Shown: piece after piece, positions 3,001-64,000 of the stretch
Layout of the letters: every line of letters begins with the position of its first letter
How positions within the stretch are numbered: the first letter of the stretch is position 1
Notes under the pieces: model-generated
Seen by the model: only the letters and a program-made list of their open reading frames with translations
Told to the model about the DNA's origin: nothing
Database searches by the model: none
Program-made: the position numbers and the translations under genes
Virus record (IMG/VR): IMGVR_UViG_3300025131_000014
Location: 26,317-90,316 of that record
Source: a virus
Length of the DNA stretch: 64,000 nucleotides
Strand: one strand, 5' to 3'

Positions 3001-6000
3001 AAATTCTTCTTTAAACTTCTTGGCTATTAAGGCATCAATTATAATTCTCCCAACACTAAGGTCTGGTTGTCCTCCAAACTCTTCAACTATCATTTGAGAT
3101 GCGCCAGGTGCTGCACGACCAACTCCTTCATCCCATGTCCCTCTATGTTCTATTATTTCCCCTTGTGCCTCATTATTAAATTTAGCAGCTATAAGAGATT
3201 CAATAGACATATCTTTATATTCTTTTAATTTCCCTTTTACATAATCTCCTATAACACGTTCATATTGTACTAAATCTTTATCTTTTTCATATTTATATTC
3301 CTTAATGGTATATTTACCTTTTTTAATCTTAATCTCTTTTTTAGATACTATTTCATCCCATGCTTCGAATTTTAACTGTTTGATTATTTCTTCATCTGTT
3401 ATCTCAATTATTTTACCTTTATCTGCAACTCTTTTACTAGTGCCTGATTTGCTTCTTGTAGCATAATCCAATGCTGTGTCTAAATAAGGAGTCAAAGAAA
3501 CCCCTGTTGTTTTGCCTCCAAAATTATCTTGTGCAAAAATTGTTAAGTCTCCGTTCTTATCTATTTTATATTGAGATTCAAGAGATACGCCCCTATATAC
3601 CTTTTTCTGTTTCTGAGCAATTTCTTTAGGATTCTGATTATATCTTACTTGTTTTTCTTCTTCAGTAATCGCAGGCACTTCTTCAATATCCCCTTTTTTT
3701 ATGTTTTCTGTTTTTTTGACTTTAACACCTTTAACCCCACTACTTTGTTGTGTTGGTTGAGTGGATTCTAATTCTTGTTGAGCTAATATTAAACCTTCCA
3801 AGAATGCTTGGTCTATTAATTGATTTGTGTTATGAGTAAAGCTCTCATACTGCATTAACTTTTTAGCAGCTTCTGAATTAGAGTTTTGTTTAAAAGACTC
3901 AACTACAAGTTGTTTCATTAAACCTAAACTATCTGTTTTTTTCATTTGTGCAACAGTACCTTTACCTCTTATTTTTTTCCCATATCCTCCAATCCCAACA
4001 TATTTGTTATAAGTAGCTTGATCAAAAGTACCAGACTTATTAGATTGATAAGCATGTTCTACACTGCCGTATTCTCTACCTTTCCAAGTAAACTCTCTTG
4101 GAGCTAGATTAGATAAAATTTTGGTAGAATATTCAGACTCAGCTTGTCCCCAGTATACATTAATAGTTCCTTTCTTTTCAACCTCACTAGTTTGTTGTGC
4201 TGGTCCAATATTTAATTTACCAGTATTAAACCATTCTTTACTAAATATAATATTAGAAGGAATAGGTCCAGCAGCATTAAACATATCAATCATTTCTAAT
4301 CCTGTGTAGCCATTTAAAGATGCTTTAGTAGTATTTCTGTACGCTACTTTAAATTGTTTATTAGGATTAGCTCTGGCAGTCTCATATAAAGATTTAATAG
4401 ATTCTGTAATTTGTTGAGGAGAAATAGATTTAAGACCTTTATTTTCTTTTACTCTTAAATCTTTCGTAGGTAAAGCATAAGCATTTCCTTGTAATCCTTC
4501 TCCTTGTCCATACTTAGCACCAAATTTATCTTTAGCTTTTTTAGCTGCCCCTGCACCATGCCTACCTTCTGGATTACTTCCAAATACAAATATTGTATTT
4601 TCTTCAGGAGTTATATCGCCCTCATAATATTGAGCGACCTCTTCTTTTACCTCTATATCACTGTCTTCTGGTACTATTGTAGGGTCATTAAATCCATATT
4701 CTTTATTAAGTCTATCAGCTATAGCTCTTTGGAACTCAATCATTCTTTCTTTAAACTCTTTTTCTCCTCCTTGATATCCAGTGTCTCTTAAAATGTTATT
4801 ATATGCCTCAAGTTCTTCTAGAGTAAGTGGAATAGCGTCATAAAACTTTCCTGTTCTTCCTGTACCTCCCACAGCTCCAACACCTCCGTCTCTTTCAGCT
4901 TGGCCATATCGCTCAATTCTTGCTTTTCCGTGTAGTCCTGATCGTAAATTTATTTTTAATTGGTAAGTATTATCCCAAATATTCTTTATAGTCTTTTCAG
5001 GATACGTACCTAAGTAAAGATCAGGAGTTACAACACGATCAACAAATTCACTATCTTCTACAATATCGGCTGCATCCTTATAAAATTCTTTTTGGGCTCC
5101 TACTAAGTTAAGTGTTTGATTAAGAGCAGCTTCATAAAGACTTTTATCTTCAAATGTTTCAGCTAAAGGATTATCCTTTTTTAAGGATCCAACTAAGTCA
5201 GCAAGTAAGCTTAATAGTTTTTCCCATATATTTTTACCTTCTTCATATCCTTTAGGTATTTTATGGGATAACATAAATGTTCTTAATCCTTTAGAGGCTG
5301 AAATTCCTGCTGTAAATTCATTTACTGGATGATTAATAGAAACAAGAGGGTATATATATGTTGATTCTGCCCATGTTAATGTTTGATTATTAATAGATTT
5401 TTCTTTAACTCTTATAAAGTCTGCTTCAGTAACTCCGTCTTTACCAAATAGCTGGGCCAATGTAACAACTTCTTCTGTTGTATCCTCACCTTGTAAAACT
5501 CGTGTATCTGGTGATGCTGCTATTAGAGCGTCTTTAGTATGTGTAGCTAATTTAATAAGTTGATTAACAATTTTCTTTGTTTCTGGTGAGGCAATGCCTT
5601 TCCTGACTTGATTTATAGCTGCTAAAGTTAAGAAGTGTGTTAATTCATGTATAATAATAGTTTCTTCTAAATATCTTTGATTTTCAGGAGCAAGTTCACT
5701 TGTCCATCCTGTATCTTCTCTTTTAAAACTAACCTCTGCTAGTGTGTATTCTCCTTGGTCATTAAAGCTGCTTCGAAACACTCCGCTTGATATTGGACCT
5801 TTTGTTCCATTAATCTTAATAGTTACTTTAATATTTTGAGGAAGTGTTTCTATAACTTCTTTATAAGCAGTGGCCATTTTTTTATGATAGTCACTATTAG
5901 AGTTAAATCTAATATCCTCTAACATTTCAATAATTTGTTCTTTTTGATTTTTTATACCTTTGGTTACTTCTGTAATTGAGGGGTCTTCTGACGGGTCTTT

Positions 6001-60193: not shown

Positions 60194-60646
60194 TATATTA
60201 ATGATAGGTTTCTGTAAACTTACTCACTTTAGAGCATAATACAAAATATTATAGAAACTTAATTATAGTTACATTCGTAGATAGATCACCTTATCCCCCC
60301 CGCATGTGATTTTGAATTCCCATTTAAAACTTCAGTAACTGAAGAACTCCATAAGTTTTTAATTAAGTAATATAATAGATGACCAGGCGTAGCAGCCCTA
60401 CTTCATTTAACCATCTTATTTTCATGGTAGGGTGTCCTAATCTCTCTCTTTAATCAGTATCGCAATATAAAAATAAATATTTTAAAAAAAAAATAATGTG
60501 AAAATATTCGAGTTCTTGAGGGTCTCTATTGGAATCATCCCCAATGGTAAGAGAGCGGTCTAATCCCCGCGAGTCTGTACCATGAACCTAGGTTCGTGTA
60601 ATACAGGCGAGGCACTGCGCCAAGCAGATACTTAAATCCGAACGTT

Positions 60647-61099
60647 ATGAAAGATTTAATTCAGTTGGTTGCTATTCGCTTGTCGAATAATCCAACAAAA
60701 GCAGTCATTGATGCAGTAGACGGCATTGATGGCAAGCTGAATGAAACTTCCGACGGTCGTGGGTACTATCTTGCTGTCTTCAAAGATGCCAACAACCCTT
60801 TTGCTGAAATGCGTACACGCATGATTTCACAGCAATTGGACTCTGATGGCAATCCTTCGTGGAAAGCTGGAACACCTAGCATGATTGCAAAGTTCGTAGG
60901 GCGTACAATGCCTGGTTCTATTGTGACAGCTACGGTTGAACCCTATATGATTGGCAATAACGAACAGACCGTTTATACGACTGTTGTACTTGGTTCCGAA
61001 ACCACTGCACAGGCGTTCAAGCGTGCTGGCCACGTTCTTGCTGTCGATAGGACTGAAGTGCCCTTCACCGAAGAGGAGTTGCAGGATGCGAAAGAATAG
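60647..61099 (+). CDS. Hypothetical protein, first gene after the strand switch (150 aa)
   Basis: Clean ORF, visibly more GC-rich than the late genes, followed by a strong terminator; acidic C-terminus. Confidence 0.8.
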   Translation: MKDLIQLVAIRLSNNPTKAVIDAVDGIDGKLNETSDGRGYYLAVFKDANNPFAEMRTRMISQQLDSDGNPSWKAGTPSMIAKFVGRTMPGSIVTATVEPYMIGNNEQTVYTTVVLGSETTAQAFKRAGHVLAVDRTEVPFTEEELQDAKE

Positions 61100-61120
61100 G
61101 CGAAAGCCTGTTCTTTTTTT
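61091..61120 (+). terminator. Intrinsic terminator
   Basis: AGAATAGGC-GAAA-GCCTGTTCT followed by a T run, overlapping the stop codon. Confidence 0.85.
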
Positions 61121-61249
61121 CAAATAAGACGAAAATCATTGTGATTTCCCATCAAGAGCACGTCCTAGTGTTCAATCACATCATTTTAATAAGATTTAAG
61201 TATTATGTTATTATAACACATAGTTATATTATAGCATAACAAGACATTG

Positions 61250-62200
61250 TTCTTCCTTAACAGAGGACGAACGAAGAGTGCCGTGTATGCATAGTTATGG
61301 CTAACATTTAGTTAGTCAACAAAGCTATGATACATTTGAGTGCACAGTTATTGTGGTCTTTGACTTAACCGAAAGGTATGCAAGTAACCAAACTTGTAGT
61401 TTGTCAAAGTAAAGCAATGATATCTGTAATCCTATGTAAGTATCAGCGTGGTAATAAGCGCATGGTCTGCAGTCATGTTGGTGTGACGCATAGGTAAACA
61501 AAATATGATGTGTGTTGTTAGAGCCGACAAAAGTGCGTAAGTCTTTAGTTCCTCGCCAACAAGCCATTGACTGCTCCATAGGGAGGATAGGCGCGAGGAC
61601 ACACGACATCAATTTATGTATTGTCATGCTTTCATTAACCGCATGAATATCCAGTAAGTTACTGGCGATGACAACTATCAGTAAAGTTGTGTTTTTCTTT
61701 AAGGTTTGCAAACCTTGACAAGCTTGTGGGGCTACAAGATACTTCTAATTAATCCTGTTCCACGTCCAAAATCGCACCATGGTGTAAGTAGGACTATTAG
61801 GGATTAATATGTGCAGAAATGGCGGGAGCTATAAAAGTATTTAATTATAAGTTTACTTCGGTAAATGAGTAATTATCACAATGTTTTAATATATGACTTA
61901 GCGGTTATATTGAAGAGATATTGTGCTGTTAGTGCGGATGTAAAAATCAAGCAATTATAAATCTAGGACGGTAAACTAGATGGAAGTTATTCTTGCAAAT
62001 AACTTGGTGATGGTAAAGTATATCACCGAAGCGACCTATCTATAGCCTCCGAAAAGAGAGGTTTTCAACTATAGATACTATTCCTGTACTGTTGAAAAGT
62101 ACATACAACTATTCAGGTTGGGTAATGCACGGCTAGGTTAATTCGTGGAATACGTTGAGGAGATCTATATGTCATAAGGGTCTCGCTTTGCATTATTTTA
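61250..62200 (+). ncRNA. Candidate large, highly structured ncRNA (about 950 nt)
   Basis: Continuous nested stems and multi-way junctions, C(UUCG)G and GNRA loops, G-U pairs on the + strand; no credible ORF. Confidence 0.6.
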
Positions 62201-62425
62201 AACTATAAAACTTTAACAAACCCATGTCAGGGCATAGACATGGTAACATCATCAACATTACCAGAGTGTTTTTTCTTTTTCCATACCTGACGGTTGTAGT
62301 AAAATGAAAAAAAGATATATGTTTTCGGTTTTAACTCTGTAGAAGGAATCTCTAGGTGTAGTCTTCGGACTATATCTTTAGGTTTTTTAGTTTTCCTAAC
62401 GTTAACCATTTAAATTGTTTCAATT

Positions 62426-62662
62426 ATGCTATTTGAAGATAAAGTATATGAATCAATAACAACTTATTTAGCCCAATATGGATGGACACAAAGTAGCATG
62501 GGATCCTATTTTAAAAAGGCACCTGATGGAATGAGAAAAAAGATAAATATATCTGTTACTGCTAATAAATTAGGTGTATGGCTAGATGAAAAACATGGCG
62601 GATACTTCTCCTTATTTGATATGGAAGAGAATAAGTTATTGATTTATTTCATTAAACATTAA
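62426..62662 (+). CDS. Hypothetical protein (78 aa)
   Basis: ATG with AT-rich leader, protein-like composition, followed by a terminator-like hairpin. Confidence 0.6.
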   Translation: MLFEDKVYESITTYLAQYGWTQSSMGSYFKKAPDGMRKKINISVTANKLGVWLDEKHGGYFSLFDMEENKLLIYFIKH

Positions 62663-62663
62663 T

Positions 62664-62702
62664 ATAATTACTGCCAAACAAGAGTTTGGTAGTAGTTATT
62701 TT
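62664..62702 (+). terminator. Intrinsic terminator-like hairpin
   Basis: ATAATTACTGCCAAAC-AAGA-GTTTGGTAGTAGTTAT followed by TTT. Confidence 0.65.
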
Positions 62703-63050
62703 ACTAACTTTGTTAGTCGTGGTTTGAGCCACGTTAAATAGTGCTTTAAGCTCAAAGCGTTACATAATTGTAGGGGCAATCGTCAGGAGTTGGCAGCGTA
62801 GACACTAATGTAGTGAATGCTGTAGGTATCCGAAATGTTTAACAAACATCCTTTGATTTGATGAAGTATAGTAATCAAAACATAAAATAGGACACATATT
62901 TAATGATGCGTAAGCATACATTAGAATAAGGAACTGATAGCAAACATTTATTGACCTAAATGGGTATCGCATGGTGATGTATGCGCAGGAGTATTATACT
63001 CTGTTAGATTAAGTAAGTCATCATAAATGATAACAGAATCGTTCCTTAAA
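62703..63050 (+). ncRNA. Candidate structured ncRNA (about 350 nt)
   Basis: Serial hairpins and a closed multi-branch domain (aaggaac 62928-62934 / gttcctt 63041-63047). Confidence 0.4.
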
Positions 63051-63322
63051 AAAATAACAAGGTTGTTTGATAAAACTATTGTTGAATCACCACTGCCGAG
63101 AAAGATAGTAGGCACCAATTAGTAATATGTTATGTATTACCATATTCATTAGAGTCAGCTGCAACTGTTAATGAATTAATGATAGCACGAAATGCAAAAA
63201 TGGCGTTATCAGATTGGTTAAAAAGTGACGAGATGTACCAGGCTTCTAGAAAGCGGACAATAGGATGAGTCTTAATTATATATGAGAGGATAGTCTCAAA
63301 TGTAATTCCTTGTTTTTAAAAT

Positions 63323-63568
63323 AGAGCCAAGCAAGACTGGAACAACACTGTTGTTGACTATTAATATGTCATCACAGTGCCAGGTGCTCTTTAAACTAAG
63401 GAGGTTTAACTACTCACAACTGCAGTTGTAGAAGTAGAGTTGTAAGAGTAATTACTTATAGCTGTATCTCCAGATATAACGAGAGCCAAGCAAGACGTGC
63501 AATTTAAGGAACAGATGATGTAGTGGTTTTTTCCACGATTATTTATGACGTTCTGGCACGGTGCTCTT
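63323..63568 (+). repeat. Two copies of a structured motif AGAGC-CAAGCAAGA-stem...stem-GT-GCTCT
   Basis: Exact 15-mer AGAGCCAAGCAAGAC at 63323 and 63482, each closed by GGTGCTCT; the inner stems differ in sequence but both pair. Confidence 0.8.
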
Positions 63569-63629
63569 AAGACAAAAGACCTATAACCAATAGGCATCGT
63601 GTTATATATTATAGCACAATCATTAAATT

Positions 63630-63941
63630 AGCACAAGCAAAGTCGTTACGAAAGAATCTCGAGTTTGTTACCATCTCAAAACCCAACGGGCCAAAGGACT
63701 GATGTGTAAAGGAAAGTTAGTATTAAATGTATTGTACAAAGCATTTAATCATCCAAGATAAGAGCAGCAATGCCATGACTATCTGTAGCTATTATAAGAG
63801 CAATCTTTAGCGGTAACAAGTACTATGTCAAGATCACATCCAGGGAAACCGCAAGTCGTAACTATGAGAGTGAGTAAGCAGGCAACAAATGTTTTTTTGT
63901 TGGTCAGTGTTCTGAAAGGATACTGTAGGCTTTGCTGTGCT
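63630..63941 (+). ncRNA. Candidate structured ncRNA (about 310 nt)
   Basis: Ends pair over 14 bp (agcac-a-agcaaagtc / ggctttgct-gtgct), followed by a T-rich tract; internal long-range stems and a GCAA loop. Confidence 0.55.
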
Positions 63942-64000
63942 TCTTTTTGATATTAACAGAAAACAATCGCTTTGTAATCCTGTTAATATGTATACATTAA

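What the first reader, a model, noticed from the sequence alone, without database searches (positions are those of the whole stretch)
61250..62200. Candidate giant ornate ncRNA (about 950 nt) in a crAss-like phage
Seen: near-continuous pairing. Examples are the long hairpin 61283-61335; three-way junctions closed by ctttgac/gtcaaag (61358/61409), cctatgt/gcatagg (61431/61494) and ttgtcat/atgacaa (61621/61674); a multibranch tgatgt/acatca (61506/61611); attaatcct/gggattaat (61748/61808); gtttac-TTCG-gtaaat (61851-61866); GAAA and GGGA tetraloops; and a large domain closed by tagtgcgga/tttgcatta (61930/62195). Many pairs are G-U on the + strand, indicating that strand. Established: large ornate phage RNAs (GOLLD, ROOL) exist and their functions are largely unknown. 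Inference: a member of such a class or a new one; I cannot assign a family by eye.
Basis: partly seen in the sequence, partly recalled or inferred. Interest (0 to 1): 0.9.

Follow-up and report, generated by a model that had tools for sequence, protein, structure and literature searches.

The report
Phage RNA array with Hatchet ribozyme
The supposed 950-nt giant RNA of this marine crAss-like phage is really a string of separate folded RNA modules, one of them a known self-cutting Hatchet ribozyme and another a small RNA motif not in Rfam, and a true GOLLD giant RNA lies a few kilobases further along the same non-coding island.

Summary
The dense plus-strand folding is real: z is -6.97 on + and -2.18 on -. 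It is not one giant RNA.

Positions 61695-61952 are a Hatchet self-cleaving ribozyme. It scores 48.5 bits (E 4.7e-8), its catalytic core is intact, and P4 carries about 180 extra nt. The orthologue in L033 scores 56.1 bits, above the cut-off.

Relatives carry the pieces independently:
- A, 61247-61500
- B, 61506-61611
- C, 61618-61689
- Hatchet plus D2, 61695-62254

C belongs to an RNA motif absent from Rfam. It has 23 distinct copies in phage contigs and strong covariation, with 0 of 500 shuffles reaching the observed score. In two lineages a Hatchet follows it directly.

No GOLLD or ROOL match lies in the region. The same genome does hold a GOLLD at contig bases 1859-2244, in the same island. 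In two relatives a Pistol ribozyme ends exactly where GOLLD homology begins.

Best reading: an early non-coding transcript that cuts itself into several RNAs. Their functions are unknown.

This scan has described similar ribozyme-containing phage RNA islands on other DNA. Expression and cleavage are untested.

The parts
61225..61239 (+). Promoter-like 15-mer TATATTATAGCAYAA, just upstream of module A.
   Evidence: Exact copies lie at 61225 and 63605, and one more at the contig start, L056 52-66. Another sits upstream of module A in relative L004. A promoter role is inferred only.
61247..61500 (+). Module A: a 254-nt structured RNA with a 5' hairpin (61250-61273) followed by a multi-branch domain. 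No Rfam family.
   Evidence: MFE -79.3, z -4.63 over 200 shuffles. It is 79.5% identical to L004 3922-3657, and the inner arm 61361-61418 is swapped for unrelated sequence there. In the two-sequence consensus fold, 3 pairs change on both sides, 7 on one side and 0 of 69 break. Alignment z is -5.89 on + and -2.16 on -.
61506..61611 (+). Module B: a 106-nt helix-closed RNA domain. No Rfam family.
   Evidence: Found alone in L042 (4575-4469) at 88.8% identity with exact ends, although that phage's terminase is only about 72% identical. One U-A to C-G compensatory pair and no broken pair. Thermodynamic support is weak: z -0.93 for the single sequence and -2.62 for the alignment.
61618..61689 (+). 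C motif. It runs: conserved GUAUUG, a hairpin with a variable stem and a conserved UUYCNUUAACC loop, an invariant CCAGUAAGYUACUGG hairpin, then a third hairpin (61672-61689) with CAGUA in its loop. The third hairpin also sits where Hatchet's P0 is expected.
   Evidence: 24 matches, 23 of them distinct, at 56-98 bits in IMG/VR phage contigs. All 6 pairs of helix 1 covary, 97.8% of cells are paired, and 0 of 500 shuffles reach the score. No Rfam hit. The pattern is absent from 185,579 prokaryote genomes.
61695..61952 (+). Hatchet self-cleaving ribozyme with a very large P4 insert (about 61740-61925). The predicted cut is immediately 5' of P1, at 61698 plus or minus 1.
   Evidence: RF02678 scores 48.5 bits, E 4.7e-8, over the full model 1-133. 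Orthologue L033 scores 56.1 bits, above the 51-bit cut-off. Core residues CAA (61719-21), UGGG (61727-30), GCGG (61934-37) and AAA (61944-46) match the conserved set. A65G is reported as fully active (PMC6561176).
61953..62254 (+). Module D2: about 300 nt of hairpins plus a closed domain (62121-62197), always attached 3' of this Hatchet. No Rfam family.
   Evidence: 81% identical together with the Hatchet in L033/L079, with hairpin tips swapped. Two double compensatory pairs at 62126-62127/62191-62192 and 0 of 69 pairs broken. z is -2.82 for the single sequence; alignment z is -5.09 on + and -4.33 on -.
62354..62387 (+). Terminator-like hairpin with a UUCG loop and a U-rich tail. It is a possible 3' end of the non-coding transcript.
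   Evidence: Consensus scan only.
62426..62662 (+). Orphan 78-codon ORF lying between the Hatchet/D2 unit and the Pistol ribozyme.
   Evidence: Its only match among 5.8 billion proteins is itself. No PHROG or Pfam match. Whether it is coding is unproven.
62718..62779 (+). Pistol self-cleaving ribozyme.
   Evidence: RF02679 scores 49.3 bits against a 34.5-bit cut-off. A natural variant in run X8 changes 62761 T>C together with 62772 A>G, which are the two sides of one P3 pair.
61693..62890 (+). A 1.2-kb segment (Hatchet, D2, hairpin, ORF78, Pistol and about 110 further nt) that is present here and absent from relative L004.
   Evidence: L004 joins the C-motif 3' hairpin directly to the sequence that starts at about window 62891.

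Best explanation
Window 61247-62254 is the first part of a multi-kilobase non-coding RNA island at the start of the rightward (+) gene block of a marine crAss-like phage. By analogy with phi14:2 this is probably the early block.

The stretch is a row of separate RNA modules made as one precursor: A (254 nt), B (106 nt), the C motif (about 72 nt), a Hatchet ribozyme with an enlarged P4, and D2 (about 300 nt).

Shown:
- Plus-strand structure.
- The Hatchet match with an intact catalytic core.
- Independent presence or absence of the modules in relatives.
- Covariation in the C motif, and compensatory changes in A, B and D2.
- A GOLLD RNA and a Pistol ribozyme further along the same island.

Inferred:
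- Transcription starts near 61240.
- Hatchet cuts at about 61698. This would release a 5' RNA of about 455 nt (A-B-C) ending in a 2',3'-cyclic phosphate, and a 3' RNA that begins with the ribozyme and carries D2.
- Pistol does the same job further on, at about 62774.

On this reading the ribozymes are built-in processing sites that set the ends of exchangeable RNA cassettes. The cargo RNAs probably act on the host early in infection. What they do is not known.
For: 1. Structure and strand. z is -6.97 on + and -2.18 on -. The sliding scan agrees. Two-sequence alignment z for A is -5.89 on + against -2.16 on -.

2. Hatchet. 48.5 bits, E 4.7e-8 over the whole model. Orthologue L033 scores 56.1 bits, above the cut-off. 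All 13 conserved core positions fit, with purine 65 = G, which is fully active in vitro. A hairpin sits 9 nt before P1, as in 90% of Hatchets.

3. Mosaic.
- L004 has A and C but no B, Hatchet or D2.
- L042 has only B.
- L033/L079 has only Hatchet plus D2, followed by different modules.
- The L004 junction lies 5 nt from the predicted Hatchet cut.
- B and Hatchet-D2 are 81-89% identical in phages whose terminase is about 72% identical and whose neighbouring ORF is about 61% identical at protein level.

4. C motif. 23 distinct copies, and 0 of 500 shuffles reach the covariation score. A Hatchet follows it on the same strand in the window and, 60-71 nt further on, in L090, L092 and L094.

5. Ribozymes mark RNA ends in this clade. 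In L008 the Pistol ends at position 592, and homology of the full GOLLD with five relatives begins at 592.

6. Context. GOLLD lies in the same genome (206.5 bits) and in 7 of 16 relatives' loci scanned. In the marine crAss-like phage phi14:2, long early intergenic regions give abundant, stable non-coding RNAs of unknown function.
Against: - There is no expression data. No RNA run is on record for this DNA.
- Transcript start, end and cleavage are all predictions.
- The window's Hatchet is 2.5 bits under Rfam's cut-off, and the base 5' of P1 is U, not the usual C.
- A, B and D2 each have only one relative, so their folds rest on a few compensatory changes. Consensus folding also favours structures that fit both sequences.
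- B alone folds no better than shuffles (z -0.93).
- D2's alignment z is nearly as strong on the - strand.
- The C-to-Hatchet adjacency rests on only two independent lineages, because L092 and L094 are identical and L090 is close to them.
- Modules that move independently could still work together as one RNA in this particular phage.
Confidence: 0.7

Rival explanations
1. One large ornate RNA of about 1 kb acts as a unit. Either the Hatchet is inactive here, or the cut pieces stay held together by tertiary contacts, much as GOLLD has a variable 5' half and a conserved 3' half.
For: The whole stretch probably lies in one transcription unit: one promoter-like motif at 61225 and the first terminator-like hairpin at 62354. 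The whole-region MFE includes some long-range pairs. Large phage RNAs with variable domains do exist, such as the GOLLD in this very island.
Against: The pieces occur separately in relatives with sharp ends. The Hatchet core is intact. Summed module energies nearly equal the whole-region energy. There is no GOLLD or ROOL match.
Confidence: 0.12
2. The structured RNA is mainly a long leader, with mRNA-processing signals, for downstream small genes (ORF78 and others). Hatchet and Pistol would trim or insulate the mRNA rather than release functional non-coding RNAs.
For: In L075 a strong Hatchet (78.8 bits) lies between protein-coding ORFs. In several phages the C motif lies upstream of ORFs. Ribozyme-flanked gene cassettes are known in phages from the literature and from earlier notes of this scan.
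Against: ORF78 is an orphan without any homologue. A terminator-like hairpin separates it from D2. The ORFs downstream of the C motif in different phages are unrelated. More than 1.1 kb of conserved, compensated structure is far more than a leader needs. L033/L079 has Hatchet-D2 followed by more non-coding modules and no ORF78.
Confidence: 0.08
3. The signal is not RNA. It is either DNA-level inverted repeats of a replication origin or packaging site near the genome end, or a minus-strand gene (61325-61711, 128 codons).
For: The region lies 2-3 kb from the contig end. The last 447 nt of the contig resemble its first 455 nt. An open frame exists on the - strand.
Against: The strong strand asymmetry of folding would not arise from DNA cruciforms. 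Two ribozyme matches lie on the + strand. The - strand ORF starts with TTG and has no PHROG match; its only Pfam match is a sub-threshold one, CFAP43_N at 16.7 bits against a 27.1-bit cut-off. It also spans module junctions and a 10-nt length difference in L004.
Confidence: 0.03

Closest known systems
Hatchet self-cleaving ribozyme (Rfam RF02678; Weinberg et al. 2015; Li et al. 2015, PMC4604424; structure PMC6561176)
   Same: 61695-61952 has the four-stem layout P1-P4, the conserved CAA / UGGG / GCRG / AAA core, an upstream P0-type hairpin and a variable P4. A 2026 preprint (10.64898/2026.03.07.710320) states that Hatchet is found largely in Crassvirales phage genomes, so its presence here fits.
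   Different: P4 carries about 180 nt in four hairpins, so the whole element is 258 nt. Other Hatchets found here are 137 nt (L092) and 213 nt (L033). The score is 2.5 bits under the Rfam cut-off. A conserved 300-nt RNA (D2) is fused to its 3' side, and a conserved motif (C) sits at its 5' side.
GOLLD RNA (Rfam RF02032; Weinberg et al. 2009; cryo-EM PMC12286853)
   Same: Large, ornate and phage-borne. It lies in the same island of the same genome and in many relatives, and may be co-transcribed with other structured RNAs.
   Different: The finding region gives no GOLLD match at E <= 10, while the same model scores 206.5 bits elsewhere in this genome. The region is not conserved as one unit.
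HDV-like theta ribozymes next to phage tRNAs (PMC10879173)
   Same: A phage ribozyme that cuts at its own 5' edge sits directly after a structured non-coding RNA. Cleavage would therefore give that RNA a clean 3' end.
   Different: The ribozyme class differs (Hatchet, not HDV-like). The upstream RNA is not a tRNA (ARAGORN finds none). No link to recoding is seen.
Early long non-coding RNAs of Cellulophaga crAss-like phage phi14:2 (bioRxiv 10.1101/2020.03.07.982082)
   Same: Long gene-free stretches among the first rightward genes of a marine crAss-like phage. In phi14:2 they are transcribed early, at very high level, and are stable. Their function is unknown.
   Different: There is no sequence similarity. 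The phi14:2 region has a tmRNA-like match but no GOLLD, Hatchet or Pistol.
Ribozyme-rich gene neighbourhoods of phages (twister, hammerhead, pistol and hatchet clusters; Weinberg et al. 2015, from my own knowledge) and the phage RNA islands noted earlier in this scan
   Same: Several self-cleaving ribozymes and unassigned structured RNAs are packed into a gene-poor stretch, with modules gained and lost independently.
   Different: Here the module ends can be tied to ribozyme positions. Pistol lies exactly at the GOLLD 5' boundary in relatives, and Hatchet lies 5 nt from an indel junction. One cargo motif (C) forms a 23-member family.

Membership tests
Hatchet ribozyme (RF02678) | Covariance-model match at or above Rfam's gathering score (51 bits) | tested here: inconclusive
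   The window copy scores 48.5 bits, E 4.7e-8, over the full-length model with a 109-nt unaligned insert in P4. Its orthologue L033 (81% identical) scores 56.1 bits. Other Hatchets next to the C motif score 79-82 bits.
Hatchet ribozyme (RF02678) | Four stems P1-P4, with the cleavage site at the very 5' end of P1 | tested here: met
   P1 is 61699-61706/61711-61718. P2 is 61722-61726/61948-61952. P3 and P4 lie between them. The layout is as described in PMC6561176.
Hatchet ribozyme (RF02678) | The 13 highly conserved core nucleotides (C20-A22, U28-G31, G63-G66, A73-A75) | tested here: met
   Read from the cmscan alignment: CAA 61719-21, UGGG 61727-30, GCGG 61934-37, AAA 61944-46. Position 65 is G rather than A. 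The paper reports wild-type cleavage for A65G, and the position is conserved as a purine.
Hatchet ribozyme (RF02678) | P0 hairpin a few nucleotides 5' of the cleavage site (about 90% of members) | tested here: met
   The hairpin 61672-61689 ends 9 nt before P1.
Hatchet ribozyme (RF02678) | Mg2+-dependent self-cleavage giving 2',3'-cyclic phosphate and 5'-OH ends | not testable with these tools
   This needs in vitro transcription. No RNA data exist for this DNA.
GOLLD RNA (RF02032) | Match to the conserved 3' domain model | tested here: not met
   No GOLLD hit at E <= 10 in 60900-64000. The same model finds 206.5 bits at contig bases 1859-2244 of this genome.
ROOL RNA and the other large RNAs held in Rfam 15 | Match to the family model | tested here: not met
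   The only hits in 60900-64000 at E <= 10 are Pistol, Hatchet and two chance-level matches, mir-308 and snoR100.
Single 'giant ornate' RNA (the general class of GOLLD, ROOL and OLE) | The whole RNA is inherited and conserved as one unit across relatives | tested here: not met
   A, B, C and Hatchet-D2 occur in different combinations in L004, L042 and L033/L079.
Pistol ribozyme (RF02679), neighbour at 62718-62779 | Model match above the gathering score, with P3 under selection | tested here: met
   49.3 bits against a 34.5-bit cut-off. A paired change 62761 T>C / 62772 A>G is seen in a natural variant. In the alignment the cleavage dinucleotide reads G-G, not the consensus G-U, so activity is uncertain.
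Ribozyme-processed phage non-coding RNA (theta ribozyme/tRNA type) | A 5'-cutting ribozyme directly 3' of a structured RNA, where that RNA is a tRNA | tested here: not met
   The position rule is met, since the C motif ends 9 nt before Hatchet P1. However, ARAGORN finds no tRNA anywhere in the window. The resemblance is one of mechanism, not family membership.

The most novel reading that the evidence does not exclude
The C motif would be a new functional RNA class of marine phages whose 3' end is made by Hatchet. This would give Hatchet, a ribozyme class whose biological role is not established, a first concrete job. The 1.2-kb Hatchet-to-Pistol segment would be a mobile cassette insulated by ribozymes. 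Both ribozymes stay inside the excised 1.08-kb RNA, which carries 5'-OH and cyclic-phosphate ends, so a host RtcB-type ligase could circularise it. A, B and D2 would be further new RNA classes working alongside GOLLD.
Probability: 0.12. Interest if true: 0.8.

Novelty: new variant of a known kind. Interest (0 to 1): 0.55.

Why it matters
No biological role is established for Hatchet, Pistol or GOLLD. This locus, read together with its relatives, offers a testable rule: the ribozymes sit exactly at the ends of exchangeable RNA cassettes. Pistol sits at the GOLLD 5' boundary, and Hatchet sits right after a recurrent 72-nt motif. That makes 'ribozymes as processing sites of a phage RNA operon' directly testable with one in vitro cleavage assay and end-specific RNA-seq.

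The locus also yields a well-supported RNA motif that is absent from Rfam (C, 23 distinct copies) and three candidate motifs (A, B, D2). It shows that marine crAss-like phages devote several kilobases at the head of their rightward, probably early, gene block to shuffled structured RNAs. This matches the unexplained abundant early non-coding RNAs of phi14:2.

It also corrects the tempting reading that any 1-kb helix-dense stretch is one giant RNA.

Tried and rejected
- blastn of 61100-62420 against 50,697 phage records found no match. tblastn of the 2336-aa protein found none either.
- A protein scan of IMG/VR with ORF150 found no relative.
- Exact or gapped DNA patterns returned only the relatives already known: module A (where the 9 other hits were chance matches in coding DNA), D2 and B. 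The D2 metagenome scan added only L079, which is the same phage as L033.
- The C-motif pattern in 185,579 prokaryote genomes gave no match.
- Sequencing runs: no RNA holder is listed. The four DNA runs laid gave only low-depth, near-identical marine contigs with no joints. This says nothing on expression.
- ARAGORN found no tRNA or tmRNA in the window.
- PHROGs and Pfam gave nothing for ORF150 and ORF78, and only a sub-threshold CFAP43_N match (16.7 bits against a 27.1-bit cut-off) for the minus-strand ORF.
- The phi14:2 early region has no sequence similarity to the island.
- Hatchet is not found in FpV4, phi14:2 or three complete relatives. GOLLD is in one of these five records.
- I looked for a closing helix or pseudoknot between GUAUUG and the CAGUA loop in the C motif. 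Both sides are conserved, and the four U-to-C variants are not compensated, so it remains undecided.
- I considered that the Hatchet-Pistol segment is an intron-like insert that restores a continuous C-E RNA. I rejected precise excision, because the Pistol cut lies about 115 nt before the L004 junction.

Full report
**Setting.** The window is bases 26317-90316 of a 90,316-bp IMG/VR virus record rated 97% complete.
- Terminase, portal and major head protein match PHROG families at E 1e-124 to 1e-174.
- The head protein's nearest cultured relatives are Flavobacterium phages of the FpV4 group (45%). Other hits include Bacteroides crAss-like phages, crAssphage and Cellulophaga phages. 'crAss-like phage' therefore holds, and the host is probably a marine member of the Bacteroidota.
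- All runs that hold the DNA are marine metagenomes.
- The minus-strand structural genes end near 60200. The plus-strand block starts with a 150-codon ORF (60647-61099). From 61100 to the contig end there is almost no credible ORF.

- 61250-62200 folds at -272.6 kcal/mol against -233.9 +/- 5.6 for dinucleotide shuffles, z -6.97. Its reverse complement gives z -2.18.
- A sliding scan shows the same asymmetry from 61100 to 62300. The preceding ORF is unremarkable.

**What is in it?** Rfam at gathering thresholds finds only a Pistol ribozyme at 62718-62779. With E-value thresholds a Hatchet ribozyme appears at 61695-61952.
- It scores 48.5 bits, E 4.7e-8, over the full model, with more than 100 unaligned nt in P4.
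- The conserved core described in the crystal-structure paper is present: C20-A22, U28-G31, G63-G66 and A73-A75.
- Position 65 is G. That paper reports A65G as fully active.
- About 90% of Hatchets have a P0 hairpin just 5' of the cleavage site. Here 61672-61689 fills that place.
The second is simply missing in the orthologue.
Two double compensatory changes contradict it, because they pair 62121-62129 with 62189-62197 instead.

**Relatives show a mosaic.** Fifty-four loci were fetched through the terminase. blastn and nhmmer of the island against them give sharply bounded, independent pieces.
- L004 (terminase 89%) has A (61221-61498, 79.5%) and C (61615-61690, 89%). It lacks B and everything from 61693 to about 62890. 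Its C hairpin is joined directly to the sequence that in the window starts at about 62891.
- L042 (terminase about 72%) has only B, at 88.8%, with exact ends.
- L033 and its 3' extension L079 (same phage; terminase about 72%) have only Hatchet plus D2 at 81%. Other modules follow, with no ORF78 and no Pistol.
- B and Hatchet-D2 are thus much better conserved than the neighbouring protein genes. That points to transfer as cassettes or to strong constraint.

**Support for each module.**
- A: z -4.63. The two-sequence consensus has 3 double changes, 7 single changes and no broken pair among 69. An inner arm is swapped wholesale. Alignment z is -5.89 on + and -2.16 on -.
- B: one compensatory pair, and weak thermodynamics.
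- D2: z -2.82, two compensatory pairs, and hairpin tips replaced.
- These three rest on a single relative each and should be called candidates.

**The C motif is much stronger.**
- A degenerate pattern built from three copies, then a looser one, recovered 22 IMG/VR contigs.
- A covariance model finds 24 matches, 23 of them distinct, at 56-98 bits.
- All six pairs of the first helix covary. 53 cells change on both sides, 97.8% of cells pair, and 0 of 500 shuffles reach the score. Sliding the partners by 1-3 columns drops pairing to 25-46%.
- The loop UUYCNUUAACC and the hairpin CCAGUAAGYUACUGG are nearly invariant.
- Rfam has no match. The pattern is absent from 185,579 prokaryote genomes.
- In L070 and L072-L076 the motif is the 5' domain of a longer conserved RNA.
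- In L090, L092 and L094 a high-scoring Hatchet (81 bits) follows it after 60-71 nt on the same strand. In the window the Hatchet follows at once. That is two independent lineages, so it is suggestive and not proof.

**The wider island.**
- GOLLD (RF02032) lies at contig bases 1859-2244 of the same genome at 206.5 bits. It is also in L005, L008, L016, L019, L020, L042 and L051 at 198-222 bits.
- The window's last 447 nt are 88.5% identical to the contig's first 455 nt, so the island very likely runs across the contig ends.
- In L008 the Pistol occupies oriented positions 526-592. Homology of the full-length GOLLD with five relatives starts at 592. In L005 the Pistol lies in the same position, about 45 nt upstream of where that homology starts. 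A ribozyme that cuts near its own 3' end therefore sits where the GOLLD 5' end should be.
- Hatchet, which cuts at its own 5' end, sits right after the C motif and 5 nt from the L004 indel junction.
- This is the basis for reading the ribozymes as processing sites of a poly-RNA precursor. HDV-like theta ribozymes next to phage tRNAs are the nearest published parallel (PMC10879173).
- Content varies. Hatchet is absent from three complete relatives, FpV4 and phi14:2, and GOLLD is in one of those five records.

**Transcription is inferred only.**
- An exact 15-mer (TATATTATAGCAYAA) precedes module A, recurs at 63605 and at the contig start, and precedes A in L004.
- A terminator-like hairpin lies at 62354-62387.
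- In phi14:2, the one marine crAss-like phage with transcriptomics, long early intergenic regions give very abundant, stable non-coding RNAs of unknown function. Its region shares no sequence with this one and holds only a tmRNA-like match.

**Comparison and novelty.**
- The Hatchet is a new, unusually large member of a known class. A 2026 preprint already describes that class as largely confined to Crassvirales phage genomes.
- Ribozyme-rich phage RNA islands are a known kind and were met several times earlier in this scan on other DNA.
- New here are the C motif as a family, the candidate modules A, B and D2, the coincidence of ribozyme positions with cassette boundaries, and the placement of all this beside GOLLD at the head of the rightward gene block of marine crAss-like phages.

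**Limits.** Only one relative exists for each of A, B and D2. Cleavage activity is untested.

Noticed in passing
G000:C1:1859-2244 (= L056 1859-2244), outside the window: A true GOLLD RNA (RF02032, 206.5 bits) lies in the same genome, about 2.2 kb past the window end on the + strand. A paralogue of ORF150 follows it at L056 3107-3646.
   Followed up: partly
L008 2149-2083 (-) and L005 912-837 (-): A Pistol ribozyme lies at the 5' boundary of full-length GOLLD. In L008 the Pistol ends at oriented position 592, and homology with five other GOLLD loci starts at 592. In L005 it lies about 45 nt upstream of that point.
   Followed up: partly
window 63554-64000 and L056 1-455: The last 447 nt of the contig are 88.5% identical to its first 455 nt. 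These could be diverged tandem copies of a roughly 400-nt RNA module or an imperfect terminal repeat. Each copy is preceded by the TATATTATAGCAYAA motif.
   Followed up: partly
L070 931-1330, L072, L073, L075 and L076 (C-motif loci): In other marine phage contigs the C motif is the 5' domain of a longer conserved RNA of about 250-330 nt. Its features are AAUGYACCA, the hairpin CUCACUUCCCAAGGGUGAG, and a long-range stem CAGUUGUAAU...AUUACAACUG that closes a variable insert. It has no Rfam match.
   Followed up: partly
window 62761 and 62772: A natural variant in marine run X8 changes both sides of one Pistol P3 base pair (U-A to C-G). In the cmscan alignment the Pistol cleavage dinucleotide reads G-G instead of the consensus G-U.
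   Followed up: partly
L042 2285-2203, L051 524-113, L020 657-247, L004 408-326, L069 (phi14:2) 4031-4502: tmRNA-like matches (45-71 bits) recur in the non-coding islands of relatives and of phi14:2. None is found in this genome's scanned parts.
   Followed up: no
window 63323-63337 and 63482-63496; 63383-63410 and 63560-63587: Two direct-repeat pairs mark a duplicated RNA element about 160-177 nt apart. This is the duplication another first-stage note described.
   Followed up: no
window 61729: One contig of run X6 matches 61408-61729 and then continues with 68 unrelated letters. This suggests a strain whose sequence departs inside the Hatchet, just after P2.
   Followed up: no
L076 4090-4011, L074 436-386 and L070 857-907: Extra C-motif copies, full or weak, lie in tandem immediately upstream of the main copy in some phages.
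   Followed up: no
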